Below, in pieces: positions 39,692 through 62,300 of a stretch of DNA of 64,000 bases. The position numbers were made by a program, and so were the translations under genes. The stretch is from Callorhinchus milii (taxonomy: Eukaryota): the NCBI RefSeq assembly GCF_018977255.1, contig NW_024704760.1:2852001-2916000 (forward strand). The letters run 5' to 3'. Each line of letters opens with the position of its first letter. Positions within the stretch are counted from its first letter, which is position 1. Under the pieces are notes generated by a model. It was given only the letters and a program-made list of their open reading frames with translations. It had not been told where the DNA came from and made no database searches.

Positions 39692-42600
39692 ATGGCTGGG
39701 CTCTGGACTGGTGTGTTGTCTATGATTTTTAATATAATGGATTTCCATTCTTCGCATTGCTTATCGGAAGAATTGGTCGCTAAATAATGTGTGAACGTCT
39801 TAGCAGCTTGGAATTGTTGAGTATTTTCAGTAGGGCCTGTGTCGAGAGTGCAATAATATGTCGGCAATGTGGGTGTGCTTTGATATTAATCTTTTGCTTA
39901 TTTCTATTGCAGTGGGATTGGCGCTTTTGCTTCAGCTGCAGCTGGGTAAGTGATAGCTTCTGCGGATTTGGCCCTTATGTAGTTAGCTCTGTTTTTTTTA
40001 TCCTGCCCTCTCTCCTTCACCATATCCACCAAGCCATGAGATGCATTACTGAAAGCCTGTCTGTCAATAATTTCCTGAGGTTACTCATTAGATTGAGAGC
40101 CAGAAGGCAGAGAGGGTAGGGAAGGAATGAGACATCGAGGAGAGGGAACTAATTGCAAAACTGCGCCAAATAAAAAAGAGGTTTGATCGCGTTTTTCGAA
40201 TATAATCCAATAAAAGAAAAGCACAGTTTATTTCTAACCTAATGAAAAAAACAATACTTTTCCCCCTTCACCTTGCTAATTTCATCACGGGGGGTGGGGG
40301 TGGGTGGGGGCACTCTTTGTGCTTCATATGTTTTGCCTTTAAAGCGCTCTGGGACGCTACTCTGCGTGAGGGGCGCGATTTAAATGCAAGTTGTTGTTGT
40401 TCCAGCCTCTTCCTTCAAACTGGTTTGTTACTACACCAACTGGGCTCAGTACAGACCGGCTGCCGGTAAATTCTTCCCCGAGAATGTGGACCCCTGCCTG
40501 TGCACCCACTTGATCTACGCCTTTGGCAGTATGACCGCTAACCACGAACTTACCACCTACGAATGGAATGATGACATTATGTATCCGAGATTCCAAGCAC
40601 TTAAGAACAGGTTACTTCTGCGCTTAAATTTTGCGACAACGACGGCAACATTTCTCAGTGTGTACAATGTAAATAGATCTGTCAGCGATTGCACTGGTTA
40701 CGAGCTGTTTTTGGAGCGTATAAATAGCAATTCAATTGAGAATGAATCGAATGAAAACAGTCAGTTCATATTTGATGTATTTGCTTCCAACAGTAATAAG
40801 GACCTGAAGACATTGTTGGCTATAGGAGGCTGGAACTTCGGGACTCAAAGGTAAGAGCTGAAATATTTTATTCTTGTTAACGAATATTTGATTGCCGTTG
40901 GCAGCTCCTTCCCACACTGGGCAAACCAACAACATTTCCCATACATACATGGAAGACTCAGCTATTTGGTTTGGATGCTCCCAAGCACGTTGATGGGTTT
41001 CAAAATAAACCAATAAATAATAATATATTGGTCACTCACTCCCACAATTGTTTGCAGGACACTGTTGTGCACAGTTGGCTGCCCGTCTTTCACCCACAAA
41101 ATACACGGTCAATCCACTTTACAGTATATTCTGTGAAGCGCTTTGAGACGTCTCGAAGATGTGATAAGGAGCTTTATCAAATGCAAGGATTATTATTATT
41201 ATTATTATTATTATTATGATTGTATTTGTCAAGGTGCCTGTAATAAGGAATTCTGAATCTGCTCCCCAGGTTCACCAGCATGGTTTCCAGCGCAGCCAAT
41301 CGCAAGACTTTCATCGACTCGTCCATCAGGTTCCTGAGGAAACATGGCTTTGATGGACTGGATCTGGATTGGGAATATCCCGGTTCCAGAGGAAGTCCTC
41401 CAGAGGATAAACAGCGTTTCACCGTCCTCGTCAAGGTAACTGCATCCCCACGCCTGTCAAACACATCCCCCAGTGTGGCTATCACGCTCTATTGTGAAGT
41501 CCTGTAGCGTAGTAGCTGGAGCACTCGCCTTGCAAGCGTAAGGATCCAGGTTCGATTTCTGTGCGGGACAAAACCTTAGGCAAGTTTCCTTACTCCGCAG
41601 GCTCTCTGTTTACCTAGCAATAAGTAGGGACCTTGTTGCTAGTCGATTGGCAAATCGTCTTCCGGGAGAAATAATCCCTTCAAAATATAAAATGTGGTCA
41701 ATCAATCTACGACTGTTTGTGGGACGCTACTATGCACAATCGACTGCTGAGTTTGCCCACAAAGTACACCGTTAAGCCGCTTTGCAGTATATTGTGTGAA
41801 GCGCTTTGAGACGTCTCACCGATGTGATAAGGCCCTATATCAAACGCAAGGATTGTTATTATTATATTAATTCTGGACATCGCTGTGGGAAACTAGTTGG
41901 CTAACGTACCACCATTAACCTCTCACACCAATACTTTATCAGGAAATTTTGGAAGCGTTTGAAAACGAAGGACAAGCGACAGGAAGAGCTCGTCTGTTGG
42001 TCACAGCTGCGGTGTCCGCTGGCAAAGGAACCATCGATGCCGGCTACGAAATGGGTCTCCTCGGCAAGTAGGTTACATGATTTAAGTAAACATCTTCTCT
42101 CCTTCAAATCCCACATTAACTAGTTCGCCAATGAATGAACTTCATTTGTAGAGCGGCCTTTCATGTCTGGAGGATGTCCCAAGGCCCTGGACAGTCAGGG
42201 ATTTGGTTTCCGAGCAGTGGTTGGGATCGGGAGGTATAGAGGGCAGGAAGGGTAGGGGTAGGGGAGTGACCGAAGGAAGCGATTGAAGAGGAGGGTCTTG
42301 AGACGTGCCTTGAAGGAGTCGATTGGCAGATCGTTGAGATGGAGTTCCAAAGGGTGGGTGGTGGGGGGGTTGGGTGGTGATCACCCAACATGGTTGAGAC
42401 ATCTCAAATGCAAGGAAAGTGATGTGGTTCAGGAAATGAGATGGAGTCTAAGCTGTCGCTGCTTATTTGTGTTTCCAAAGATACTTCGATTTCATCAGCG
42501 TGATGACGTATGATTTCCATGGTGCCTGGGAAACCAAAACCGGACACAACAGCCCGCTGTACCGCGGCTCGACTGATCAAGGCGACATGATATACTTTAA

Positions 42601-44765
42601 CACTGTGCGTATTGACCATTAAACTCAAGGCGATTACTGTTTGGTTTCAGACCCAACCCCAGCCTCTTCTCCCCAATGCTAATCACCAAGCCGAATGTGC
42701 TTCCTTTCCAGGACTTTGCTATGAAATACTGGAGAGATGATGGGGTCCCGGCCGAAAAGCTGCTGGTGGGATTCGCTACGTACGGACGCACCTTGAGACT
42801 CTCCACGTCGAACTCTGGGGTGGGAGCTCCAGCAAGTGGACCTGCACCAGCTGGAACCTACACCAGAGAGGCTGGGTTCTGGGCTTACTATGAGGTGACT
42901 ATAAGTTTGTCACTGCATAGCAATGTATCCAGCAGGATATGGATTCCTGTAGCGTAATGGTTAGAACGCTCGCCTCGCAAGCGAGAGAACCCGGGTTCGA
43001 TTCCCGGGCAAGCCGAAACCTTAGGCAAGTTTCCTTACTCCAGACACTTACGTGTTTAACCGGATAACATTGGTAGCAAAGAAAATGCTGACAACGTTTC
43101 TTATTCCATGAACAGATCTGCGACTTCTTGAAGGGGGCACAAACCTCATGGATTGAGGATCAGAAGGTGCCTTATGCCTACAAAGGAGATCAGTGGGTTG
43201 GGTATGACAATACGAAAAGCTTCGAAGGCAAGGTAAGAATCGAAGAACTATTTTTATTTTGTAGGGCGTACTTTAATTTGAGTTTCATATCACGCAGTAC
43301 AGTATCAAATATTCAGTCAATTCGCTTTGCGGTATATTCTGTGAAGCGCTTTGAGACGTCTCGATGATGTGATAAAGTGCTATTTCAAATGCAAGGATTA
43401 TTATTATTGATTATAACAGTAGATAAATCAGCCTCCCTGCCCTCCACCTCTCTTGATGCCACCCCGAGCTTGGGTCCAAATCTCTGACTGTCCAGCGCTT
43501 TGGGACATCCTCCCGCCGTGAAAGGCGCTGTGTAAATGTAATTTGTTGTTGTTGTTGTTTCATGCACTGCACCACTTTTGGTGCACTTTTACTCCCACAG
43601 GTCGCCTGGCTCAAACAGAACAGCTTCGGAGGAGCCTTTGTGTGGACTCTCGATCTGGACGATTTCACTGATTCTTTCTGCAGCCAGGGTCGCTATCCTC
43701 TGATCTCCAAACTGAACTCTCTGCTTGGAATTTCTCAAGGTAACTTGGTTGTTCCTGGTCTTTTTTTTGTACACACAACACACACACACAGTGCAATTAT
43801 ATATTCCAAATCCATTTTTACTAACATTGCTCCAAGGGATTTTGTATCTAATATGAGGAATGGTATAAATTTGACACAGTTTATTAAACATGAATATACT
43901 ATTTTCAATGCAATACAAAATTATATTTGTATTGCGCCTTTGGCGGGGTGGGCCTTTTGCCACTCTGCCCCTACCCGCAGTCCCTCTGCCTCGTCCCCTC
44001 CCTTGCCTCCTTCAAGCACCATCTCAAGACACTCCTCTTCGACCGTGCTTTCGATCACTCTCCCCAATCCCGACCCCCAGCTCGGGTCCGAAACTCTGAC
44101 TGTCCTGCGCCATGGGATGTCCTCCTGACGTGAAAGGCGCCATATACGCACACGCACACACACACACACACACGTAATTTTGCTGTTGTTTTTGTCGATT
44201 GAGGTGTTAAAGTCAAACCCACAAAACCATAACATTAAATTGCTTCTCCGTGAAACCTCGACCCGTCCTCAAGCTCTGCCGACGACACACAACACGTTTC
44301 TTTTGACTTAAAAGTCATCTCGGCGTTTCAGGACTCTTTTTGATGTGTTTTTTTTTTGCAAAGGTGACATAGTGGTTTCACTTAACGATTCGCCCACGAA
44401 CTATACAATCAATTCACTTTACAGTGTATCTCGTGAAGCGCTTTGAGACGTCTCGAAGACGTGATAGGGCGCTGCATCAAACGCAAGGATTATTATTGTT
44501 GTTGTTATTTACGATTTTTAATAACTCTTCCCTTGCAGATTGCACCCCTGGACCAAACCCCAGCCCGGGTCCAACCACTACCACAACCCCTGGTGGGGGT
44601 GGTCCTGGGGACGGAAGCTTCTGCGATGGAAAGCCTGACGGGGTGTACGCTCACCCAGACGCCAGCAATAAGTTCTACGAATGTGCCGGAGGGAAGACCT
44701 TCGAAAAGACCTGCCCCAACGGATTAGTCTTCGACGAGTCCTGCAAATGCTGCAATTGGCCTTAG
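39692..44765 (+). CDS. CHIA: GH18 chitinase 1 (CHIA/AMCase-like) with Pro/Thr/Gly linker and one C-terminal CBM14, ~464 aa, 11 exons
   Basis: Exons 39692-39710, 39913-39945, 40406-40610, 40794-40850, 41270-41435, 41943-42067, 42481-42604, 42712-42894, 43116-43232, 43601-43739 and 44539-44765. Motifs: signal peptide [43 protein letters not shown], intact catalytic [25 protein letters not shown]14 FCDGKPDG...FYEC...[17 protein letters not shown]. The symbol is a family-level call. Confidence 0.93.
41500..41870 (+). mobile_element. Full-length tRNA-derived SINE, same family, in chitinase 1 intron 5
   Basis: Same head, body and tail as 11245-11610. Other copies at about 2870+, 6258+, 7690-, 9230+, 10440-, 14345- and 42945+, plus dozens of tail-only fragments. 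Confidence 0.8.
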
Positions 44766-44849
44766 AGGCTACAAGTCGCCAACCCTCCACCCCACCTCTC
44801 GAGTACAAATATTTGTGTAGACTAAGCGGATGCCAGTTAGATTAGAGCA

Positions 44850-44855
44850 AATAAA
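44850..44855 (+). terminator. Polyadenylation signal of chitinase 1
   Basis: AATAAA 85 nt after the stop codon, followed by T/GT-rich sequence. Confidence 0.7.
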
Positions 44856-45539
44856 AGCAATGAAACGTGCACAAAGTTGAACTCAGTGAGTTTTATTGAG
44901 TCGTGGGGTCCGTTCCGCTACCGGTTTGGTCAGTATGATGTGAATTGTGATACAAGGGAAACCCATATACATCATCAAACACTCAGACTCACACAGAGAT
45001 AAGAACAATGCACAATTTGGACCAACCTACTTGTTCGTGCTGTGCATCGCAAGGTTGAGGACATAACAATCCTCCCATTTAATAATCCTTGCATTCGATG
45101 TAGCGCCTTATCACGTGCCTATGTATGCCTACACAAAGCTCTCTTTGCATTAAAGTGGGTCTATCCTTTAATCCACACATATCAAATCCTTTTAGATTTG
45201 CATGTCATGTGTTGCATGCAAAGCTTTGGAACTCTCTCCCCCCCAATCCCTCCTCCCTGCCTCCACCTGCTCGTCTTTCAGATCATGGCTGAAGATCTTC
45301 CTCTTCAGTCACTAATTTGCACACAGCAATGGAACCGTAAACAGTCATGACCAAATTTTATCTGGGGGGCTTGTTGCTCAGGAGAAATTCCTTCCTCTTT
45401 CTGATTATATTTTTAAACAACAACAAATTACATTTGTATAGCGCCTTTCATGACAGGAGGACATCCCAAGGGATCTGCACCTAAAGGGCCTTTCACATCG
45501 GGAGAATGTGCTGAGGTGCATAAATATAATTAGGACACT

Positions 45540-45992
45540 TCACAGCCAATCACGACTTCAGATAGCGCAGGAGGCATTTCACAACCAACTAGCACCACAG
45601 TTTAAGATCCATAATTTTGCCTCAAGAAGCCTGATGTGAACCCAAATGATCCTATCACCTTCTATCAATGCTCCAATGGAATTATGTGTGTCTAGCAGTG
45701 TCCCAGTGGGATAGTCTTACAATCCCAATGGTGATTGCTGTGACTGGCCAAAGGTCTACGATACAGACTTTTGCCACAACAATCCAGATGGTAATCATCC
45801 AAATGTTAATGAACCCTCCAGCCTCTATCGTTGCTCCACTGCAGTAACTCACACAATGCAGTGATATAGTCTTGTGCTGTCCTGTGATTATCTATACACA
45901 CCACAGGGGTCAAATAGTATAACAAGCGTTTACATACAACTGTCCTCCGGATAAATATAAAACCATCAGTTACTGCCGAGCCTGGGATAACT
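45540..45992 (+). pseudogene. Decayed multi-CBM14 chitinase terminal exon (S/T/P linker plus 2-3 chitin-binding modules with stops and frameshifts)
   Basis: Manual translation from 45540: SQPITTSDSAGGISQPTSTTV*DP*FCLKKPDVNPNDPITFYQCSNGIMCV*QCPSGIV(+1 shift)YNPNGDCCDWPKVYDTDFCHNNPDGNHPNVNEPSSLYRCSTAVTHTMQ*...SCDY, then in another frame AFTYNCPPDKYKTISYCRAW. This follows the CBM14 pattern of both flanking chitinases. Confidence 0.8.
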
Positions 45993-47996
45993 GAGCAAAT
46001 AATAATAATAAAAATAATCATCCTTGCAATTGACATAATGCCTTATCACGTCAGTTACAGGTCTGAAAGCGCTTCACAGCATTTTATTGCAAAGAGTAGC
46101 TAGCGACTGGGTATTTATAGGCAAACGCAGATAATAGTGAGAAAAACATTTGGAAAATTGTAATGAAAGCTTAGTCTCAACAGCTATACAACAAACAATT
46201 ATTCTTGTTGGAAATTAAAATGAATGCACGTGACACGAAGATATAGTTGGTATTGGCTGTTTCTGCACAATATGGCAGCATCTTACACTTTCAGACAAAA
46301 TGATGTCGTAGACTGTGATTAGGTGAAATTTTAGGCTCAGATGTTACTGAGTGTGCACTCAGGGCCATTATATGACTAGGTGGGTGAGCGAATAAACGAG
46401 TGAGAGAGCAAATGAATGGAAGGGGATATCTGGGAAGGCCAAACCACACATCTGCTCAAATCGTGGCAGGAAACCGGTAACACATCACAATGTTTGTGTC
46501 AATGGCACTGTTTACTCCAAAGCGCACACGGGTTGCAATCGTGCCTAAGCTGTAGCCAATAATATTGCAAAGGGAGAGGGACGTGTCTGGGTCGGTCCAG
46601 TTAGATTGCGTTTGCCTGAAGGAGATAAGAGTGGTCAATGTTCATGGCAAGGTGACTGTACTCCCTATGAAGCACAAAACTCAGCAATCAACATATGGTT
46701 CTGAGCATCAGTGAATAATAATAATAATAATCCTTGCATTTGATTGAGCGCCTTATCACGTCGTAGAGACGTCTCAAAGCGCTCCACGCTGTAAAGTGGA
46801 GTGACTGTGTATTTTGTGGGCAAAATATCAAGCCATGATAGCATACGGTGGCCAAAAAGCAATGAAAGCAGGTTGCCTCCGAGCTGACTTCCCGCGAGTC
46901 GGGATTTGCTTAGTAAGAACCCCCTGTTGGAAATTGGCGCATATCAGGTCCCGTTATCTGAAGAGAGAATACAATCCACTAATGGTGTGTAACCCTTGAT
47001 CAGAACTCTGGGATTTGTGTCCCGCTGTGACAGTCTCTCCAGGAGGAAAAAGGCCAGGGTCCACTCGTTGAAGGGACTTGGCAAAGTGTCCTGTTTGAAC
47101 TGGCAAAACTCCCGGTGGAATGTCAAGATGCACCCGGGAGGGTGACATTGGATTAGCATTGCCTAACTGCTAAAGCCATGTTTTCAAAGATAAGGAAAAA
47201 AAGTTATAATTCCACAGGATTGATTGTGGTGAAACCTTTTAAATGTCCACCCATCACCCAAAATCAACCGGAAATCAGCAAGTTTCCCGCAAGTCTAACC
47301 TGTTATTTATGCAGGAAATGGAACCAGATATTCTGAGCACAAAGCTTATTGTGGAAATCTACCCAATTTTCCCCAAAGGGTTGGGGTGAGTATAAACTGA
47401 TGCAATCTATGTTGAACCACTCGGACTTAAGGCAACGTAACTAATTTCGGTCAACACTATTGACCTTTGTGGAGAGAAATAAAAGCTGCAGGGAATCTTT
47501 AACATAAAAGTGAAAGGTGCTGATTGCTTTGCTTCTTTCTATGGGTTTTTGACATCACCCACCATCTCCAGCTGTGCGGGTGGACAAGCAGGAACTGGAG
47601 CTTGTCAGACCACAAGGAGACACAGCAGACCAGCCCTAGGTGACGCTTCCTCTGATATTCACTCTGGTTCTGTTGGTAATGTTCCTTTGCTCCAACTGTC
47701 TCCCTCTCGCCACCAGGGACGCTCGAGATTGCCAGCTCTCTCACTCATGTGGCGAATGATGGATGTAAACTTCGAACTTTAAACAGAGAAACGATTTCTC
47801 CAACGATTCGCCGGTCTCCAACATGTGGTCATAATGGTGAGTTCATTCCAATCCAATCTCTGCTTCAAACTTTATCTGCCCATGGTTGGGCATCAGGTGT
47901 AGATGTTTCCTGTGCTCCATTACACTTGGCACCAAATTTCGACAGTGCTACCTGTGCGAAGGTGCATGAAAGTCTTCGTTCACTGCAATCAACAAT

Positions 47997-50900
47997 ATGA
48001 CAAAGCTGCTTCTCTGGGGTGGTGAGTGCAATGTTAACCCTGACTCTTTACAGACTGCATGATTCCCCCCAAAAAATTAAATGACAGTTTTTGCGCACAA
48101 AATACCCAGCGCGATAATCAAACTACGTACCTATAACTAAAGTGTTTTTGTTAAAAAAATTCAGGAATAGTTCTGAGCATCTATAAACATCAAAATGCCA
48201 TTTAAGATTCATGTTTTTCCTGTTCATTTTTCAGTGGGATTGATCCTGTGCTTCCAATTGTACAATGGTAAGCTGTGATACACTCTAACCTTTCAGTCCT
48301 TAAATTTCTTATGGTGAATAATTCTATGTTTCACCACTGATGCATTTACTTGTTTCAGATGATCGAGCATTTTAAAATTGGGATCTAATTTGCAGCGTTT
48401 CTTAACAGGTTTCTTAATTAGAAATGCGCATTTATTGCATTTCTGAGCCACTAATATCTGAATTTCTAAACCCCCAAATTCCAGACATTCGATAACGAAT
48501 TCTTCAGCAATTCTTCAATGTTTCAGAGAGTCAGCGACTGCACATTCCTTGTTCAGAAATCAATTAAGAATGAATGCAAACCAGATCCATTGCCTCCTCT
48601 TACAACGTACGAAAAATAGTACCTTTCACCTAGGAGAAAATCTCAAAAAGCTTTTGGAATAAAAACCGAAGTCGCTGGGAACACTCAACTAATTTGTAAC
48701 CCATTCTAAACCAGTATTAGGCAAAGACTACAAACTGGTTTGTTACTTCACAAACTGGGCCCACAGGAGAGGAGACTGTAAATTCTTACCGAAAGATATT
48801 GACCCCAAGTTGTGCACACATCTCGTGTTTGCTTTTGCCACCATCGGGGAGGATCACCAAATAGTTGCCCAGGAGAAGGACGAGGAAGAGCGTTTAGTTG
48901 CGTTCAATAACCTTAAGAAAAGGTAACCATCACCTGTCGCTTAACACATCTTGTTGCATCTCTGTTTACCTAACAGCAAGCAGGAACCCGGTTGTTAGTC
49001 GCATGTTCGCTTCAGAATAAATTCTATTTGCCGATATTCTCAATGGGTGACTGTTCGGCTAAAACGACTGTAAAAATGTAGAACTCGAGCAAATGGGAAC
49101 TCGAGGAGACCATTTTTGTTTTCCGAAAAATAAAATCTTTTGAAATATTTAACGCTCAAAAATTGGGTCTTTTTTTTTTGAAAAAAAATAAAAATGAGGA
49201 TATTTTCTCGCCTTTTCGCAGGAATTCGAACCTGAAGACTCTCTTAGCCGTTGGCGGCTGGACATTCGGAACTGAAAAGTAAGATTCTTATGAATGGTAA
49301 ACAACTAATTATTCTACAAACTCGTGTTACAGTGAGTCTGAATTTGGGAGGCGGTGGTGGTGGGGGGAATGTACCTAAAGTATAACATAAAGTCTCATTT
49401 CCAAAGAGGTTGGATGAAAAAGGCCCTTTGGTCCATTTGTTCTCATTGTACCACGATAATCAAAGTAAAGCTTCGTATAACACCATCAAATGTTCCCTGA
49501 CTTACAGAATCATAGAGCACAGAAGGAGCCATTCGGCCCATCGTGCCTGTACCGTCTCTTTGAGAGCGCTACCAACTAGCCCCACTCCCCCTGCTTTTAC
49601 CCCATTGCTCTGCAAATTTTGCCACCACCTTTCCTGGTAACCAATTGCAGCTGTTCGCTACCTGGTGTAGAGAACCGTGTCCTGAAAAAAAAAAGGCAAA
49701 ATGACGCAGTTTTGTCATATTGCGATTTGTTCCTTATTTCAATTCATGTTTCTGTCAGGTTCACTGCCTTGGCTTCTATGCCAGACAATCGCCAAATATT
49801 CATCAATTCATCCATTAAATTCCTGAGGAAATACAAATTTAATGGATTAGATCTGGACTGGGAATACCCGGGGTCGAGAGGAAGCCCACCGGAAGACAAG
49901 CAGCATTTCACCCTGCTGGTTCAGGTGTGTCACATATAACCTTCGACTCCGCTCTATTCATCAGCGAAATCAGATTGTGTCGATTACACTCGCACCAAGG
50001 AATATCCAACCTCAAGGAATGGTTCACGTTCAATTGCACTGCCGTTGGATCCAGAGTCGTGAACAGATTCACCCACACAGAACGTACCCATTGAGACAGT
50101 ACCTGTTACTATTCCTTTTATGGGGAAAGGAGGGTAAAATGCAGGGATTCCTTCGAAGCCCAGGAACACTGGGTGTACATAGACTGGAAGGAGAAAAAAA
50201 AGCCCAAGACCCATCAGGTTTACTCAACCCTCTCTTTCCCATGCCACCTCCCTCACAATGTGCACCTCCACATCTCTCCTCTGAAAGGTGCTATGCATTC
50301 GTAATTCGTTGTCGTTGCTGCTGCGGGGACGCTATATACATGCAAGTTGTTGTTGTTGCTGATTCAATGCTGTACTTGTGTATACACAGGAATTGCTGGA
50401 GGAATTTAAGAGCGAAGCTCTCAGACGTAATAAGCCAAGGTTGCTGCTCACGGCTGCAGTGGCCGCTGGGATAAGGACGATCGAAGCCGGCTACGAAATA
50501 GACAAGATTTCCAAGTGAGTGGGAACCCCGTAAGGTACGTCTCCACACATCGGAACAAACACCACGACAGCCCGAACAGGAGCGGACACAGAATGTTTGA
50601 AAGAACGCCCCCTGTCCTCTAGAAATATTCACGACAGCGGTGCCAAGGTTTGGAAGGAAGCGAGTATGTTTCGCCCACAAGACGTACAAGTCAATTCATC
50701 TGACAGTATATCCTCTGAAGCGCTTTGAGACGTCTAGAAGACGTGATAAAGCGCTGCATCGAATGCGAGGATTATTACAATTATTACCGGAATTAATGTA
50801 AATAATGACAATTCTTCCAGTTGATACAACGTGAAAACGTTTCAAAAGCGCTTCACGGGGAATCGCTGTCAAGTGCAGAGACCGTTCCTTAATATCGCAA

Positions 50901-53820
50901 GTAGCAGCACGATGCCTAAATGCCTCGGCCCTATTTCGCTTCACGCTCGACTACAATTAACACAGCACCTGGTTTATTTTTTTTTTAAACTCTGCACAGG
51001 CACCTCGATTTTATCAACGTGATGACGTACGATTTCCACGGTCCCTGGGACAAACTGACAGGACACAACAGCCCCCTGCACGCGGGCTCCACTGATCAAA
51101 ACGATGACGTGTACTTTAACGTGGTACGTACGAAAAGGGCCACTTACTTTCAGAGACTTTCCATTCGGAGTTTTTCCGAGCGTGAGAAAAGCTCGGCCCC
51201 ATCGGTGACGAGGTTTAATTAAACCTTTACCCTCCAGGAGTACGCCATGAACCACTGGATAAAACACGGGGCTCCCGCCGAGAAACTGTTGGTTGGCTTC
51301 GCCACATACGGTCGCGCCTTCACGCTCTGCACGACTGATAACAGACCCGGGGCATCAGCATGTGGGCCAGCAAAGCCAGGCCGATGCACTGAGGTCCCTG
51401 GATTCCTGGCCTATTACGAGGTGTGTTTTGAAAGGCTTAACCATTGAGGGTATTTGCGTGTTCCGAACCCTTGCCACCACGCACTCCGCACCACTCTACC
51501 ATTTCGCCCACACAATACACAAGTCAATTCGCTGGACGGTTTATTCTGTGCAGCGCTTAGAGACGTCTCAGCCACATGATAAGGCGCTGTATCAAGTGCA
51601 AGGATTAGTATTGTTATTACTATTATTATTACTACTCACCAGCCAGCGATTGGGACTCTTGGTTGGCTGCGTGGGTTGATCTTATGGGAGAAGCAGGTGA
51701 AATACCTTTGAGACTCTTGGCAGCCAACCTACTTCCCTGGTGAGCAGTAATGCTGTCCTCAACAGCTTTGTGCAACGAGTGCCTTTCCGCGTTAGGGTAC
51801 GAGCTTCTCCCTTAAAATAGGGGCAAAAATGTTATTTTTTTGTTAGAAAAAAATGTGCACCTTTTTCTCTCCACCCCCCACCCCCCTCACCCCTTCCCCC
51901 CTTCCCTCCCCATCAACAGGTTTGTGACTTTTTGAAAGACGCCGAGAGAAAATGGATCGAGGATCAAAATGCTCCGTACGCTTACAAGGAGAACGAGTGG
52001 GTCGGGTATGATGATGCCACAAGCTACAAGAAGAAAGTACGTGTGGAACTCCATTCCAAAGTCCCTTCACCTCGCCCCCCACCCCCACACCCATTCTTGC
52101 CTGCGCCTTCAGGTCACCCTCCTACCCCTTTTTGCATATATACCCAATTGTGCAGCCCAACACAGCTTACAAAGGAGTCACTACACTTGACCAGAACACA
52201 TGTAAAATACTTTACAAGATCCCCGAAACAGAAGTGCTGTAAAAATACAGATTTTCTTCTTTCTTAAAATTAGTTAACAACTTCATGACTGTTTGTGGGT
52301 CAATGCTGTGCGCAAGTTGGCTGCTGCCTCTGCCTTGAAATACACAGCCACTGCACTTTACAATAAATTCTACAAAGCAATTTGAGACATCCTCCCGATG
52401 TGAAAGGCACTAAATCAAATGTAAGGATCATCATATAAAAGTTTGATTGCTCATTTTATGTCTCCATTTAATGCACTGAATTGAAATTGAATTGAAACAT
52501 TGAACCCGATATCCTAAACTTGAATACTGTTAATTAAGCCTGAAGGAACTTGGAGCAAAGTTGTCTCTATGTGTGTAATAGCGTTGGAAAAAATACTTAA
52601 GGTTTTCAATCAAAGTTTACCTCACAAACTGTTTTCGTGTAAGGTTCAAAAGAAATGTTTGGTGTTTAGTTTTGGTGGGTTGCGTTGGCTGATTTAAACG
52701 AGAGGAGAAAAAAAATATAGAAAGAAAAAAGTATTTTGAATGACTTTGATCCCCTCAGGTCGAGTGGTTGAAAAACAATAACTTTGGAGGTGCAATGGTG
52801 TGGTCGATAGACACGGATGATTTCAAAGGAACTTTCTGTGAGCAGGGAGCATCGCCCCTAATAAACACCCTGAAGTCTCTGCTCTCTGATTCTGCAAAAA
52901 ATACAACAGGTAAAAAGCATTCAGTACAAAGCGCTGCCGGGAATTCTCTCGTTCAGTGCAAAGAACATCAAACAAACCAACAGTATTTCTTAGAACAAAT
53001 AATCACTGGAGCTTTGAGTAGAATTTCCAGCTCGTGGGGAATTAATTTGCTGTACGCGACGATAGTTAAAAGTAATCGTGTCTGCGAGACTGCGGCTCTT
53101 TCATGTGAAGCCTCGTCCACAAAATACGCAGTCACTCCACGTTGCGGTCTGCTCCGTGAAGCGGTTTGACGCGTCTCAATGAGGTGACGAGGTGCTCCAT
53201 CAAGCGCAAGGGTTGTTAAGTCGGAATGTTCTTTTGTTTTTTTTCCCCCCACCTCTTCAGCCGGGTCCACCTCACCCCTGGCCACAACTCAAGCCCCACC
53301 GGGCTCGGAGTCGGTCGACCTCTGCCCCGACCTGAAATTTTGCCGCGGCAAGAGGGACGGCGTCTACCCAGTGCCGTGCGCGGTGGCCAGCTTCTACCAG
53401 TGCGGCAACGCGAGCACCAACATCCAGAGGTGTTACAGGGGCACCGTCTACAACGCCACCGAAAACAAATGCCTCTGGCCTCCGAGGTTCTCTCCGACGA
53501 TCAACCTAGTTGAGAACAACTTCTGCAAAGGGCAAGCGGACGGCAAGTACCCGATGCCAGTCCCCACCTACCTCCAATGCTCCAGCGGCAGAATGCGCGT
53601 CATGGAGTGTCCCACCGACCTGCTCTACCATTCGACCACCGGAAACTGCGAGAGTGCGAACGCCCCTGCAGATTACGACTCCAGATATTGCAAGCACGCT
53701 CGCGACGGCACCTATCCCATCCGAGGCAGGCCCACCAAGTATTACCAGTGTGAAAATAAGAAGACCGCAATACAGCAATGCCCCCGGGGGAAAATCTACA
53801 ACAATTTCCGCAAGTTCTAG
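47997..53820 (+). CDS. GH18 chitinase 2 (CHIA-like) with three tandem CBM14-like modules, ~582 aa, 11 exons
   Basis: Exons 47997-48021, 48235-48267, 48715 (or 48721)-48922, 49222-49278, 49759-49924, 50390-50514, 51000-51123, 51238-51420, 51920-52036, 52759-52909 and 53261-53820. Core exon sizes 57/166/125/124/183/117 match chitinase 1. Signal peptide [17 protein letters not shown]; catalytic [12 protein letters not shown] retains DxDxE; the last exon encodes three F/YC..DG.YP..YQC..C..Y repeats. Confidence 0.92.
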
Positions 53821-56365: not shown

Positions 56366-59300
56366 TTAAAATCGGTAATTTCTGTCTTTGTCCGGCTTTA
56401 TTCCACAATATTTTTCTTGAGTGTAATCTTGTCCTTGACTAGTCTTTGGTGGATACTTATCCCAGGACTCGTTACTTCTGGAGGAATACCTGGGTGAATC
56501 ACAGGGTCTGTCTTTCCCACAGCTGTCCCTTTGTTCTCGGTTTCTCTCTGGGTAATAATCCCTGTGTGGAGAGTGATCTCTTTGATGACTGTGCTGTCTC
56601 CCTCGATCGTAATCGGGTTCTCTCTCTCGGTAATAACGCTCGTGGGAACCCGGACTTCTAGAACGATCTCTCCGACTCCCGCTCCTCTCGCCCGATCTCC
56701 GCTTTTCTCTTTTCCTTGAAAGCTCCTTCTCCCTTTTTTTATGTATTAAAAAAAATATAAGATTGTTTACTTAATGTCAGCCAAGAGCTTGAAATCTTTG
56801 AAGGACGAACAGAATAATAATAATATTAATAATTCTTGCATTTGACATAGCGCCTTATCACATCGTTGAGACGTCTCAAAGCGCTTCACAGGGTATACCA
56901 TAAAGTGGACTGACCGTGTATTTTGTGGGTGAACACAGTACAATTTACACGCTCCTTAGCTTACATTGCACACGTCTGATTCATATTGCTTCAGATCACA
57001 AGTAACCCATCATTTCTATGGCATATTTGACGTGAATTACTGCCAGCTTAAAGCCAGTATAAATGTATTGTATTCTCGCTCATGAGACCAGTGACTTCTA
57101 AGAACTTAGCACCATCGTCAGGCAATCCGCAGTACTACAAATATCTGTAAAGCCATTTAATAACGGGAGAGAACATAGTTAAAATAATAATAATCCTTGC
57201 ACTTGATGTAGCGCCTGATCACGGCATTGAGACGTCTCAAAGCGCTTCACTGGATACACTGTAAAGTGAACTGACTGTATTTTGTGGGCAAAAAAAATTT
57301 GATTCCAAGAATATTTAGTGTCTCTGCAAGTAAAATAATAATAATCCTTGCATTTGATGTAGTGCCTTAACACGTCTTTGAGACGTTTCAAGTATAACCA
57401 ATCAATTGGAGCAATTTTAAACCAGGAAAGCCGTTGATTTGAAGCCTTTGCCTGTCAAGTTGTGATCTGGGAGCTTGCAGCATCTACAAACATCTAAACC
57501 ATTGCTACAAGTTTATATTTGATCCAGTTGGGTGGGTATCTTTTGAGCGAGCCTTTGGACAAGAAATAAAAGATATATTACCACGATCCCGAGGCGTGTG
57601 GTTTGGGTTTGGGTTCTTCATTGTGAGGCTTCTCTGGAGTGCAGTTTGGTGAATCCCTGTATCCATCCTGTGCAATTGCTTTTGATTGCTTAACTAAGGA
57701 AACCAGTTTAATTAGAGTCCCATAATCATTTGAATGGCCATCTGGAACAGAAGAGGGAAACGTCAAACCCGTATGCTCACTAAGTTTCTAAGTTGCTTAA
57801 TAAAATGGCAGAACATAGTTTGCTGTGTGCAAACTACCTGTACATGAGATACAATTAATAGCGATCAAAGTTCTAGAAGACATTGAAGTGCCTTTTAATG
57901 ATCGGATAAAAAGTGGTATTTTATGGTAAATGTAACAACCTTTAAATATTTCAAAGACCATTGCGCTCCTAGTTGGAATTAATTCAATCCAGTTGTCTGT
58001 TAGAGTTTGTTAGTTTAGCTAGTAAAACTTTACGGCCTTTATTATTACATTTCATGCGAAAATGCACCACTGTTGATGTTTTATTAGAATGTGCACAGGG
58101 CGGAATGGCAAGCTAAAGAAATGGCTTCACCTCGTTACCTTTGCTCACCACAGACCCGTCACTCGGTGGAAAATTCTGTGTTCTGTTTATTTCGGTAACA
58201 AACTCCATTGTATTGGGCGATTTCTCTGGAAAATGCATTTCCCTGTGGAAGAAATGCATCCAATAAGCTTCAGACTTCAAATATATATATATCTACATTA
58301 TATATACACACACACACACACACAGCCATGAATATTAAAAAACAGGATGCACAAGCATGATCAGATATTTTGGCAGTGCAGCAAGTTAAAGCATCGACGT
58401 AACAATGCTATCATACCTCCTTTCGGAAATAATATATTCCTTAAAATAAAGGGAAAAAATTCCAGTGGTGTGAGGAAACAAATCACATAACGAGTTACTC
58501 TGAAGCCCAGCGACTGCTATGAAGACAGCCAAGGTAGCTCGGAAGTAATTCAACAACAATTTGCATTTATATAACGCCCTTCACGTGGAGTAGCGTCCTG
58601 GAGCGCTTCCAAGACCTTAATCCTCTGTAAATAGATTCAACGAGGAGTAAATGGATGGTTCAATTCTGCCTGCATAATGCACTTAGGTCTTCAATTGTAT
58701 ATTTCAAACATACGGCTACAACAACAACAACAACAAATTACATTTGCATACGGCCTTTCACGGAGGTATTTACCTCGAGTCGCAGAAGCCCATTCAGTGC
58801 AAACCTATTCTTAGGACAGTGTGGTCATAAAGATAACAAACCGAATTCTCACCTTCTTGGTATTCTGTAATCCAGAGTATAAGCACAGTAACCCTGCTGT
58901 GGATTCGTGCTACTGTCTAAAACAGTCTGTCCTGTGCTGACTGGTGTTAGGAAGGTGGGAAGGTTGCCATGAGGAGTATTTAAAGTCTGACTGTGTCTGA
59001 TAAGACCAGGAGGTAGAAGGTTCCCGGCTGGTAATCCCAATGGAATTAAGTGACGCAACATAACGTTGGGGGGAGGAGGACAGGGAGGATGACAGGCTTC
59101 ACTGATGAGTTTCACAACCGGCTGTTGGAAAGGCGAAGGCGTTTCCTCTTCAAAGTCGGGATCTGTCGAATAAAAATAAACAATACCTGCATTTAATAAC
59201 GCATCTATACACATCGAAACAATGAGTTAACTGAAGCGCAGTGAGTGCTTCGAAGGGTGACGAGGTAGCTAGGAGCAATTTGAGAACATACTGAGGAGAG

Positions 59301-62300
59301 ATTAAGCGCACCTTCAGTGGCTTCTTCCAAAGCGTCGGGCAGAGATTCGTTGTCACTTTTCTCGGGATCATCTTTATCATAATCCTCCTGCCCTTCCTCG
59401 TCGGGTAAGTGCAACTTGGAATTTTCCATTGCTGCAAGCAAGGACACAAACCAAAAATATTCCCATTTATTTGAAACGAAGAACTGATGGGTACATCGCA
59501 AGCAAAGTTGAACCACATAGCTGGTTTATGCACTCTAAGACTCGATCTTAAAAAGGGTACATTATTTGCAAGGTGAATCGTAATTTCGAGCAAGTTGAAA
59601 AACAAAATCTCACATACCATAATTTTGTTTTAAAAACACTAAAAGATTCAGAGCCTGATAGACCACAATCCCACAGACTTTATTTTGGAAAGGAAGAGAA
59701 ACGAACAAGCAGGACTTACATTAGCAAATGGATTTGAATTAGTCGAATTTGCTGAACAGAAAGTACAGGTGTTTGACCTTACGCCAAAAGCTGGTAACTC
59801 GTAGTCTAGTCAACTTACGTTCTCCTAAAGCCACCTGTTGGGCAGAATTTTTATTCAATATGCCCAGTCAACAAACTTACCATTTATGAACTGCATTTCA
59901 AAGTACTGTCGATTTGACATGGTGAAACAACGAACATCAGGAATTCTTCCATGGATCTCTTTCTTTGGAAGCATTTCTAACAGTCTATTGAGATCCCAGT
60001 CTGATGACAAACACACCTTAACAAATCTGCGTAAGACAACACAACAGTTTACTTTTTGCCACCAAAACAGTAACAACAACAACTTGAATTTATACCGTGG
60101 TCTCTCAGGCAGGGTAGCGTCCCAGAGAGCGCTTACTATGATCATTCAAGCGCAGCCACGGACTGGCTTCGGAAATTCTTCGTCTTACATAGGATCAGGA
60201 GTAGGCCATTCAGCCCCTCGAGCCTGTTCCGCCAATCTATTAGATAATAGTTGATCTGTACCTCAACTCTAATTACTTCTATAATATCTTCACATGGAGA
60301 TCCTGGTGTACAGTAGCTCACCCTTTTGACTGTCCGCCTTTTTGAACTTCATAAAATTTGATTCGATCGACGTTACATATTCCAGCTGTACGAATGGCCG
60401 CCATGATGTCGTCATTTGTTGTCCACTGCGGGAAAGCAACACAGCCCGAATCAGCAAAGGCAGATGGTCATTTCTGTTGTGTTACTATTTCATTCAATCA
60501 CTCAGGCTTGGAGCTCAATTCTAACGTGATCCTTCTTTCCTTTGGACACTTTCGATGCAACACTGCTGCGCGCAAGTGGCTGCCTCCCAGAATATACTGT
60601 AAAGTGGGGTAACTGTTTTATTTTGTGAGCGAAATGTGGCAGCCAATTGCGCACAGCAGTATCCCCACAAACAGTCGTGGATCGAGTGACCTGAAATTTT
60701 TTTTTCAGATGGATTATTACCCCTGGAAAGCGATCCGCCAATCGCTCACGATATTTATAGCAAATATTGTTGTCGTGCTACCAATTCGCCATATCAGACA
60801 CACGTAACGATGCTATTGATTCAATATATTTTTATAAATAGTATGATACGATCAAAAATACTCACCCACGTCAGATTTCCGATGAGCAGAACCTTCTCTT
60901 CGGAACATGGAATTTCGATCCTCTGTGGAAGAGCAGGTTTACTGACAACGACAGGCTTTGTCTGTATGGTGATGTTGAAGGATTTGGGCGCTGGCACGAA
61001 ATCAAAGGGTGTCTCTTTAGGAACCAGCCCATTATTCAAAGGCACTCCTATTATATCATTTATCAGATCGTCGTACAAATCCTTCTGTTCCTCACTTTCA
61101 ATTTCCAGCTGCTAGAAAATAAAAGACACGGGAATGAAACGTTATCGCAACTTACCCCTGAAATGCACTGAGTGGAAATAATAATAATAATAATGGATAT
61201 ATTTACATTGACATTTGGACCTGTCGATTGTTGGTGTCAGTCATAGATACTGGATGTCACAACCCGGACTATCAGTTCGCCGGCAGATAATAATACAGTA
61301 ACAGCAGATAAAAAGACCTAATCTTTGCAATTTATGTAGCGTCTTATTACGTCATTGAGACGTCTCAAAGTGCTTCACAGAATATACTCCGTAACATCGC
61401 TCGACTCCACCACTACCTCACCCCTCAGGCCGCTGAAACTCTTGTTCATGTCGTCATCACCTCCATCCAGGCTCGACTATGCAACCGCCCTGCGTGTCGG
61501 CCTTCCCAACTCCTCCCTCCACAGCTGCAGATAATCCAGAACTCTGCCGCCCGTGTCCTCTCCCGCACCAAACTCCGTGACCCCATCTCCCCCACTCTCG
61601 CCCGACTCCATCGGCTCCCTATCCTTCAGAGGATCCAGTTCAAGATCTGGTCCTCACATACAAAGCCCTCCATGGCCTCGCCCCACCCTATCTCTGTGAC
61701 CTCCTAACCCCCTACCAACCCGCCCGCTCCCTCCGCTCAGCCAGCTCCGGCTGCTCCACATCCCCCGACCCACCCGCCCCATCACTGGCGGGAGAGCCTT
61801 CAGCCACTCTGCCCCCAACCACTGGAATTATATACCCCAGTCACTCCGCCTCGCCCCCTCCTTAGCCTCCTTCAAGTCCCGCCTCAAGACCCTCCTCTTC
61901 GACCATGCCATCTGCCACCCCCCTTCCCCTCCTCTCCCTTCTCCCCCACCCCCGCCCCCAACCCCAGCTCGGGTCTGAAACGCTGTACACAGTCGAGTGC
62001 CTTAGGACGTCCTCCCGACGTGAAAGGCACTATACAAATGTAATCTTCTTGTTGTTGTTGTATTGTAAAGCAGATTGACTTGTGTATTTTGTGGGCGAAA
62101 CGCGGAAGCCAATTGCACAGCAATAACCCACAAACAGCTGTAGAAATCACCAGCTTCAAGATCTAGTAAAAAATCTGTTTTTTTTCTTTTTTAGATGCTG
62201 ATTGAATTGCTGCAGATATCTAGCGTGTCTTCGTATTCACGGTTACGGTATTATTATCCACTGGTTAACTGATTGTCTGGGTTGTGACAACCAGTATCTA

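What the first reader, a model, noticed from the sequence alone, without database searches (positions are those of the whole stretch)
45540..45992. Hidden fossil multi-CBM14 exon between the two chitinases
Seen: about 0.8 kb after the chitinase 1 stop, sequence missed by the ORF track translates through stops and a frameshift to an S/T/P linker and tandem CBM14 modules (FC..PD..FYQCSNG..QCPSGIV/YNPNGDCCDWP-KVYDTD-FCHNNPDG..LYRC, plus a third CPPDKY..YC remnant). Its spacer PKVYDTDFC mirrors PADYDSRYC in chitinase 2. Inference: either the ancestral gene had alternative terminal exons (one CBM vs several) that were split between the duplicates, or a third multi-CBM gene was deleted except for its tail. 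Either way this suggests a modular chitin-binding system in a vertebrate.
Basis: partly seen in the sequence, partly recalled or inferred. Interest (0 to 1): 0.8.

Follow-up and report, generated by a model that had tools for sequence, protein, structure and literature searches.

The report
Dead chitin-binding gene relic in chimaera
Between two chitin-digesting enzyme genes of the elephant shark lies the broken remnant of a gene with several chitin-gripping modules; it is real but dead, and living genes of this build are common in fishes, so it is a minor evolutionary relic.

Summary
The relic is real. Between two intact GH18 chitinase genes of Callorhinchus milii lie an S/T/P-rich stretch, one full CBM14 module and the front two-thirds of a second (45546-45864). 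They carry 4 stops and 1 frameshift and score 45-52 bits against at most 10 in 40 shuffles and 38 background tiles. The relic is single-copy, and a second sequencing run shows the same lesions.

The modules are not recognisable copies of chitinase 2's tail. Shark-built profiles give true chitinase 2 modules 72-93 bits and the relic 12-27. The closest matches are stand-alone multi-CBM14 proteins of bichir, lamprey and a shark. Best reading: the remains of a separate, lost multi-CBM14 gene (about 60%); a former alternative last exon is not excluded.

Multi-CBM14 proteins are already annotated across fishes, including an intact seven-module gene in this genome. Side finding: the three-CBM14 chitinase 2 type is conserved in sharks and rays and groups with OVGP1.

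The parts
39692..44765 (+). Chitinase 1: 11 coding exons, 464 aa, GH18 with DxDxE intact and one six-cysteine CBM14. Exon 10 is 43601-43739 (ends in phase 1); the last exon is 44539-44765.
   Evidence: Exon model built and translated without internal stops; CBM_14 E 1.6e-13; motif
44850..44855 (+). AATAAA about 85 bases after the chitinase 1 stop; likely its own polyadenylation signal, upstream of the relic
   Evidence: function inferred
45418..45480 (.). Piece of a genome-wide interspersed repeat just before the relic (right end approximate). In run X11 a contig continues about 754 letters unlike the reference to the left of here.
   Evidence: Very high depth and loose ends at 45416-45450; table 8 record 14. 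Side of the extension inferred from how minus-strand records are numbered.
45546..45602 (+). S/T/P-rich 19-codon stretch, probably a decayed linker. Phase-1-compatible AG acceptors precede 45562 (weak) and 45601 (95th percentile), so part of it may be intron.
45600..45753 (+). Relic CBM14 module 1, full length: 3 stops, a +1 frameshift near 45717, a 3-codon gap against intact modules; 5 of 6 cysteines and the final Trp-Pro kept
45754..45864 (+). Relic CBM14 module 2, front two-thirds; TGA stands where the third cysteine should be; 65.9% DNA identity to module 1 over 88 bases
45923..45991 (+).
   Evidence: 17 of 100 shuffles reach its score; no Pfam match
45998..46090 (.). Interspersed repeat with an (AAT)n end, lying after module 2 (right end approximate)
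   Evidence: Dozens of blastn hits across the window; depth
46453..46548 (+). Probable further CBM14 half-module ending in a stop placed like a natural C-terminus; moderate support
   Evidence: 0 of 300 shuffles; 0 of 60, maximum 23.4 against 25.4; single copy
47997..53820 (+). Chitinase 2: 11 coding exons, 582 aa, GH18 with DxDxE plus three CBM14 modules in one last exon (53261-53820)
   Evidence: UniRef V9KD90; RefSeq XP_007897731

Best explanation
A pseudogene relic with no present function. It is what remains of a separate gene in the chitinase cluster that encoded a secreted protein with an S/T/P linker and at least two, probably three or more, tandem CBM14 modules (shown: the modules and their decay; inferred: a separate gene, secretion). 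It was most likely of the GH18-less 'cbd-1-like' type annotated in lamprey, bichir and teleosts, or a chitinase whose catalytic exons were deleted. While alive it probably bound or cross-linked chitin fibres, for example in the gut's chitin membrane (inferred from CBM14 function and PMC6109156). Its modules arose by internal duplication and stayed under selection long after chitinases 1 and 2 split. The gene then lost its 5' end and gathered stops, a frameshift, small deletions and repeat insertions.
For: Real, decayed CBM14 modules on the cluster's strand. The lesions are unchanged in run X11: no gaps, and none of the 4 listed substitutions falls in a stop. The best BLAST matches among 251 proteins are stand-alone multi-CBM14 proteins (bichir 89.7 bits, lamprey 78.2, Heptranchias 75.5), and no chitinase 2-type protein is in the top 25. 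The best such protein by phmmer ranks 9th. Shark-only chitinase 2 module profiles give true chimaera members 92.7, 72.2 and 76.9 bits (57.7 for a half module), relic module 1 18-23 and relic module 2 12-27; the bony-fish plus agnathan multi-module profile gives module 1 55.4. Sistership of module 1 with the chitinase 1 module is rejected (p-AU 0.012). The two relic modules resemble each other more than any outside module at DNA level (score 85 against at most 75.5), with identity 24, 22 and 17 of 34 at codon positions 1, 2 and 3. One bichir gene model joins a multi-CBM14 array to a GH18 behind it, which suggests such genes sit beside chitinases. Several teleost GH18-less proteins begin with chitinase-like signal peptides (seen by eye).
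Against: No upstream exon or GH18 remnant was found in 44766-47996. The roughly 670 bases between the chitinase 1 polyA signal and the relic are too few for a promoter plus two small exons unless DNA was deleted. No shark orthologue was found (0 of 10 candidates passed; weak search). AU tests do not reject kinship with chitinase 2 modules (p 0.159, 0.293, 0.177). DNA likeness to chitinase 2 module 2 is as strong as to the mucin-like gene (z 8.4 against 6.0), and relic module 2 scores alike on chitinase 2 module 3 (38.8) and on the other multi-module classes (39.7, 42.2). Many-repeat proteins have more chances to top a BLAST list. The module trees have only 55 columns.
Confidence: 0.6

Rival explanations
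1. A former alternative last exon of chitinase 1, unrelated to chitinase 2's tail. The gene could once end in one CBM14 (exon 11) or in several (this exon), and the long form was lost in the chimaera line.
For: Same strand and 0.8 kb downstream; phase-1-compatible acceptors before 45562 and 45601 match the phase of exon 10; no deleted 5' exons are needed. The chitinase 1 GH18 domain groups weakly with teleost chitinases, some with many-module tails (97/93; 80/87).
Against: Chitinase 1 has a normal stop and polyA signal before the relic. Among the 36 cluster members listed for 10 cartilaginous-fish chitinases, I saw no second CBM-bearing tail in the ends I inspected (not all 36 were inspected). 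Phase-1 acceptors are also used by the stand-alone gene on C2, so phase does not discriminate. The placement of chitinase 1 is unresolved (AU p 0.38 and 0.14 for other placements).
Confidence: 0.17
2. A paralogue of chitinase 2 exon 11: either the reader's 'alternative exons split between duplicates' or a partial duplicate of chitinase 2's tail, since decayed.
For: tblastn aligns relic modules 1 and 2 in register with chitinase 2 modules 2 and 3 (sum E 3.5e-6); 72% DNA identity over 50 bases; several modules in one exon, as in chitinase 2; AU tests do not reject.
Against: Calibrated profiles score the relic like an unrelated module. It lacks the marks of the chitinase 2 modules (extra cysteine pair in module 1, shortened module 2 core, longer spacers) and ends module 1 in CCxWP. 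It does not nest in their clades, which have 96-100 support.
Confidence: 0.15
3. A retrocopy or transposed piece of a multi-CBM14 gene from elsewhere, such as the mucin-like gene on contig C2, that landed here.
For: No intron between modules, whereas the C2 gene has one module per repeated exon; module 1 begins like the C2 repeats, with 101 of 156 aligned bases identical.
Against: Landing in the same orientation between the only two CHIA-like genes found in a 991-Mb genome is unlikely by chance. The relic lacks the C2 spacers and stays outside the C2 repeat clade (99/92).
Confidence: 0.06
4. Chance resemblance, an assembly error, or a dispersed repeat.
For: The Pfam score of the first piece is below the curated cut-off, and the second piece alone has no Pfam match.
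Against: 0 of 40 shuffles, 0 of 38 tiles and 0 of 100 shuffles per module reach the real scores; single copy; same lesions in another run.
Confidence: 0.02

Closest known systems
Vertebrate stand-alone multi-CBM14 proteins annotated as 'chitin-binding domain protein cbd-1-like' or 'chondroitin proteoglycan 2-like' (bichir XP_039605054.1, lamprey XP_078477955.1, Heptranchias XP_067824917.1)
   Same: Tandem CBM14 modules with short spacers and S/T/P linkers; best sequence matches at 34-42% identity
   Different: The relic is broken, has no detectable signal-peptide exon, and orthology to any one of them is not shown
Cartilaginous-fish three-CBM14 chitinase (chitinase 2, V9KD90, and orthologues in Heptranchias, Mustelus, Heterodontus, Pristis, Chiloscyllium, Hypanus)
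   Same: Same cluster and strand; several modules in one exon after an S/T/P linker
   Different: The relic's modules score as non-members on calibrated profiles; no GH18 exons are attached
Single six-cysteine CBM14 of CHIT1/CHIA-type chitinases (PDB 6so0; chitinase 1 exon 11)
   Same: Module 1 follows the same register and ends in CCxWP
   Different: More than one module; sistership with the chitinase 1 module is rejected (p-AU 0.012)
C. milii mucin-2-like seven-CBM14 protein (XP_007899433.1) on contig C2
   Same: Same genome; GH18-less multi-CBM14 build; similar module start
   Different: Intact, unlinked, one module per repeated exon; separate clade in the module tree
Teleost GH18 chitinases with many CBM14 modules (Siganus KAM3617867.1, 16 modules)
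   Same: Show that chitinase plus long CBM14 arrays already exist in vertebrates
   Different: Intact, with a GH18 domain; no orthology to the relic shown

Membership tests
CBM14 / peritrophin-A (PF01607) | Profile match | tested here: met
   Only Pfam hit for the first piece, E 0.024 but under the cut-off; 50.4 and 35.4 bits on a vertebrate-module profile, 0 of 100 shuffles each
CBM14 / peritrophin-A (PF01607) | Cysteine spacing and aromatic residues (FC..FYxC-x9-C..YN..C.WP) | tested here: met
   Module 1 keeps 5 of 6 cysteines and the Trp; module 2 keeps its first two cysteines and the third is a stop
CBM14 / peritrophin-A (PF01607) | Folds and binds chitin | not testable with these tools
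   No intact reading frame; no fold was run
Pseudogene relic | Disabling lesions that are not assembly errors | tested here: met
   4 stops in 88 codons and 1 frameshift; contig 14 of run X11 covers 45418-46027 without gaps or changes at the stops
Pseudogene relic | Not transcribed or spliced | tested here: inconclusive
   No informative RNA run was available (see Tried and rejected)
Chitinase 2-type (three-CBM14) tail | Modules recognised by shark-built module profiles | tested here: not met
   12-27 bits against 72-93 for true members
Chitinase 2-type (three-CBM14) tail | Grouping with module clades 1-3 in a tree | tested here: inconclusive
   Not nested; AU p 0.16-0.29 does not reject
GH18 chitinase gene | GH18 exons upstream of the CBM exon | tested here: not met
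   No GH18 profile hit in the six frames of 44766-47996; the 8 GH18 matches and 13 C19 matches all belong to chitinases 1 and 2
Stand-alone multi-CBM14 ('cbd-1-like') gene | Two or more tandem CBM14 modules without GH18 | tested here: met
Stand-alone multi-CBM14 ('cbd-1-like') gene | Own promoter and signal-peptide exons | tested here: inconclusive
   6 DNA probes from chitinases 1 and 2 found nothing above shuffles (10-82 of 100 reached the score); exons of 19-33 bases would be hard to see after decay
Alternative last exon of chitinase 1 | Splice junction from exon 10 into the relic | tested here: inconclusive
   Phase-compatible acceptors exist; no informative RNA run
Dispersed repeat | Many copies in the genome | tested here: not met
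   1 match each for 45540-45995 and 46100-46700; depth 12-16 in run X11

The most novel reading that the evidence does not exclude
The relic was a switchable alternative last exon of chitinase 1. An ancestral fish chitinase could choose, by 3' splicing, between one and three or four chitin-binding modules and so tune its grip on chitin; the long form is dead in the elephant shark but may survive in other chimaeras or sharks. This would also give a route by which fish GH18-less multi-CBM14 ('vertebrate peritrophin-like') genes bud off from chitinase genes.
Probability: 0.15. Interest if true: 0.6.

Novelty: new member of a known kind. Interest (0 to 1): 0.3.

Why it matters
The relic itself matters little: it records one gene loss in a chimaera's chitinase cluster. 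It points to two better subjects. First, fishes from hagfish to teleosts have annotated but apparently little-studied secreted multi-CBM14 proteins, which are natural candidates for the scaffold proteins of the fish gut chitin membrane (PMC6109156) or the chitin gel of the ampullae of Lorenzini (bioRxiv 10.1101/687301). Second, cartilaginous fishes share a three-CBM14 chitinase that groups with mammalian OVGP1 and has an altered catalytic motif in sharks and rays but not in the chimaera. My paper searches (0 papers; no listed title on this) found no description of either, but the library lacks most subscription journals.

Tried and rejected
RNA evidence: no listed holder is on record as RNA. 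The three guessed-RNA runs laid (X1, X3, X4; 3 of 10 guessed-RNA runs) had no depth on the relic and almost none on chitinase 1's own exons, so they say nothing about splicing. The 54 members listed could not be tied to genomic positions, because no genome of another cartilaginous fish was available.

Homologue search with the relic's two pieces: 0 of 10 candidates passed (weak search). Search with the chitinase 2 tail for longer proteins: 1 of 120 candidates, itself. ESM Atlas: no usable hit for a relic piece or for a neighbouring-gene exon. Five window ORFs from flanking genes gave no Pfam match, so synteny with the mammalian CHIA-OVGP1 region was not tested. Earlier scan findings: none.

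Rejected: the third 'CPPDKY' module; CBM14 remnants in chitinase 2 intron 10, chitinase 1 intron 10 and upstream of the relic; GH18 or exon 1/2 remnants; a dispersed repeat. The bichir GH18 behind the multi-CBM array could not be placed (long branch), so the synteny argument stays weak. The idea that gastric CHIA was lost here is unproven, because chitinase 1 plus that clade is not rejected (p-AU 0.139). A stop-count simulation suggests about 0.2-0.5 or more substitutions per site since death but is loose and ignores indels; no absolute date is given. The GH18 tblastn used a chitinase 1 model that was out of frame after exon 7; it was redone correctly. No structure prediction was run, and no paper supplements were read.

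Full report
SETTING. The window is G000:C19:2852001-2916000 of a 991.5-Mb genome. Its second chitinase matches UniRef V9KD90 of Callorhinchus milii, the elephant shark, at 99% identity. I built two 11-exon genes on the + strand. Chitinase 1 (39692-44765, 464 aa) has one CBM14; chitinase 2 (47997-53820, 582 aa) has three CBM14 modules in its last exon. Both keep DxDxE. All 8 GH18 matches of a family search and all 13 C19 matches of a shark CHIA search fall in these two genes; those searches give lower bounds.

OBSERVATION. One frame runs 45546-45716 through TAA 45603, TAA 45612 and TAG 45693; one extra base near 45717 shifts the frame, which continues to TGA 45862. CBM_14 is the only Pfam hit for the first piece (E 0.024, under the cut-off), and the second piece alone has none. 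The best PDB sequence hit is the chitotriosidase chitin-binding domain (E 0.0045). With the same best-of-all-frameshifts procedure for real and control DNA, the region scores 44.9 and 52.1 bits on two profiles; 40 shuffles reach at most 10.0 and 6.4, and 38 window tiles 5.6 and 6.5. A lamprey protein finds both pieces genome-wide at E 0.004 and 0.007, ranks 12 and 13 of 16 matches. The stretch is single-copy and is flanked by interspersed repeats. A contig of run X11 (kind not on record; it covers all 30 bins evenly, like DNA) spans 45418-46027 with no gaps, and its four listed substitutions miss every stop, so the lesions are not assembly errors.

A half-module at 46453-46548 ends in a stop where intact modules end. 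It scores 9.6 bits with 0 of 300 shuffles reaching it and 25.4 against a maximum of 23.4 in 60 shuffles and 17.3 in 29 tiles, and it is single-copy. I rate it probable, not certain. The gene may therefore have spanned about 1 kb with three or more modules.

WHAT IT IS RELATED TO. Chitinase 2 is not a chimaera oddity: six clusters of 579-587-aa orthologues from sharks and rays top a search that returned 102 proteins, and they form one clade with it (100/99). That allowed a calibrated test. Profiles built from 11 shark and ray sequences score the true chimaera modules 92.7, 72.2 and 76.9 bits (57.7 for a half module), non-matching modules 13-48, and the relic 12-27. The best BLAST matches among 251 proteins are stand-alone multi-CBM14 proteins of bichir (89.7 bits, 41.5%), lamprey and Heptranchias; no chitinase 2-type protein is in the top 25. 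In module trees of 55 columns the relic sits in an unresolved group outside the chitinase 2 clades. Sistership with the chitinase 1 module is rejected (p-AU 0.012), but kinship with chitinase 2 modules is not (p 0.159, 0.293, 0.177). Against my reading, DNA likeness to chitinase 2 module 2 (z 8.4) is as strong as to the mucin-like gene (z 6.0), and module 2 does not discriminate between classes. The two relic modules are closer to each other than to any outside module at DNA level, which points to internal duplication.

HOW IT CAME TO BE. Shown: decayed tandem CBM14 modules on the cluster's strand, without GH18 or signal-peptide remnants nearby. Inferred, about 60%: the tail of a separate secreted multi-CBM14 gene. 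Such genes are annotated across fishes; one bichir model joins such an array to a GH18 behind it, though that GH18 could not be placed. The gap after chitinase 1's AATAAA (44850) is short for a whole 5' end, but the X11 contig continues about 754 letters unlike the reference just left of 45418, so DNA may be missing here in the reference (inferred from one table row). An alternative last exon of chitinase 1 (17%) is supported by position and by phase-1 acceptors before 45562 and 45601, but the stand-alone gene on C2 uses the same phase, and RNA could not decide. A paralogue of chitinase 2 exon 11 (15%) needs a likeness that the calibrated test does not show. The simple form of it, decay since the duplication, is unlikely because that duplication predates the chimaera-shark split while module 1 has a short branch (0.29). 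Likely former function: multivalent chitin binding outside the cell. This rests on established CBM14 function and on gut chitin membranes in hagfish and tilapia (PMC6109156, passages) and chitin in chondrichthyan ampullae (bioRxiv 10.1101/687301, passages); neither passage set mentions this gene.

COMPARISON WITH WHAT IS KNOWN. Multi-CBM14 builds in vertebrates are already in public annotation: hagfish, lamprey, Heptranchias, skate, bichir, several teleosts, and Siganus chitinases with 16 or more modules. This genome has an intact seven-module mucin-like gene on C2. The salmon chitinase paper describes its ten CHIA-annotated proteins as signal peptide, GH18 and a C-terminal CBM14 (PMC10234404, passages). 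Searches for a description of the chimaera cluster or of multi-module fish chitinases returned 0 papers or no fitting title in the listings; most subscription journals are not covered and no supplements were read. The labels clade A, B and C are mine, and the six-cysteine layout of the CHIT1 domain is recalled.

VERDICT. It is a dead fragment of a known kind of gene, and the claim that it reveals a special vertebrate chitin-binding system is overtaken by intact relatives. Interest 0.3. The more promising leads are the living multi-CBM14 proteins and the three-module chitinase: it groups with OVGP1 (98/96 and 96/99, with long-branch risk), and 21 of 21 shark and ray rows carry DxHxE where the chimaera keeps DxDxE.

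Noticed in passing
window 47997-53820 (chitinase 2) and orthologues P0002-P0007, P0025, P0271-P0284: A three-CBM14 chitinase conserved across cartilaginous fishes. All 21 shark and ray rows have DxHxE and YEFHG in place of DxDxE and YDFHG; the chimaera keeps the canonical motifs. The shark and ray proteins may have lost or changed activity.
   Followed up: partly
window 47997-52909 (chitinase 2 GH18): The chitinase 2 clade groups with mammalian OVGP1 in two trees (98/96, 96/99). It could be the fish sister of oviductin; long-branch attraction and synteny were not tested.
   Followed up: partly
G000:C2:3390260-3403330 (L012-L015, minus strand): Intact mucin-like gene with seven CBM14 modules, five of them near-identical exons repeated about every 1.05 kb; relatives in Heptranchias and a skate.
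   Followed up: partly
window 45418-46027: Run X11 shows 4 substitutions across the relic against about 3 in roughly 4 kb of flanking contigs, and about 754 extra letters upstream; possibly a divergent haplotype, an indel or a collapse in the reference.
   Followed up: partly
window 39692-53820: Only two CHIA-like genes were found in this assembly, whereas sharks show three types. The species lacks a stomach (PMC13389413, passages) and stomachless zebrafish lost CHIA (PMC10234404), but the identity of chitinase 1 is unresolved.
   Followed up: partly
window 53677-53820: The third CBM14 of chitinase 2 is truncated; the chimaera lacks the two final cysteines that most shark and ray orthologues keep.
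   Followed up: no
window 56369-61111 (minus strand): Exon-like open frames of a neighbouring gene (acidic and RS-rich stretches); no Pfam or Atlas match, not identified.
   Followed up: partly
proteins P0108, P0115, P0119, P0139 (teleosts): GH18-less multi-CBM14 proteins start with signal peptides resembling those of teleost chitinases, suggesting birth from chitinase genes by loss of catalytic exons (seen by eye).
   Followed up: no
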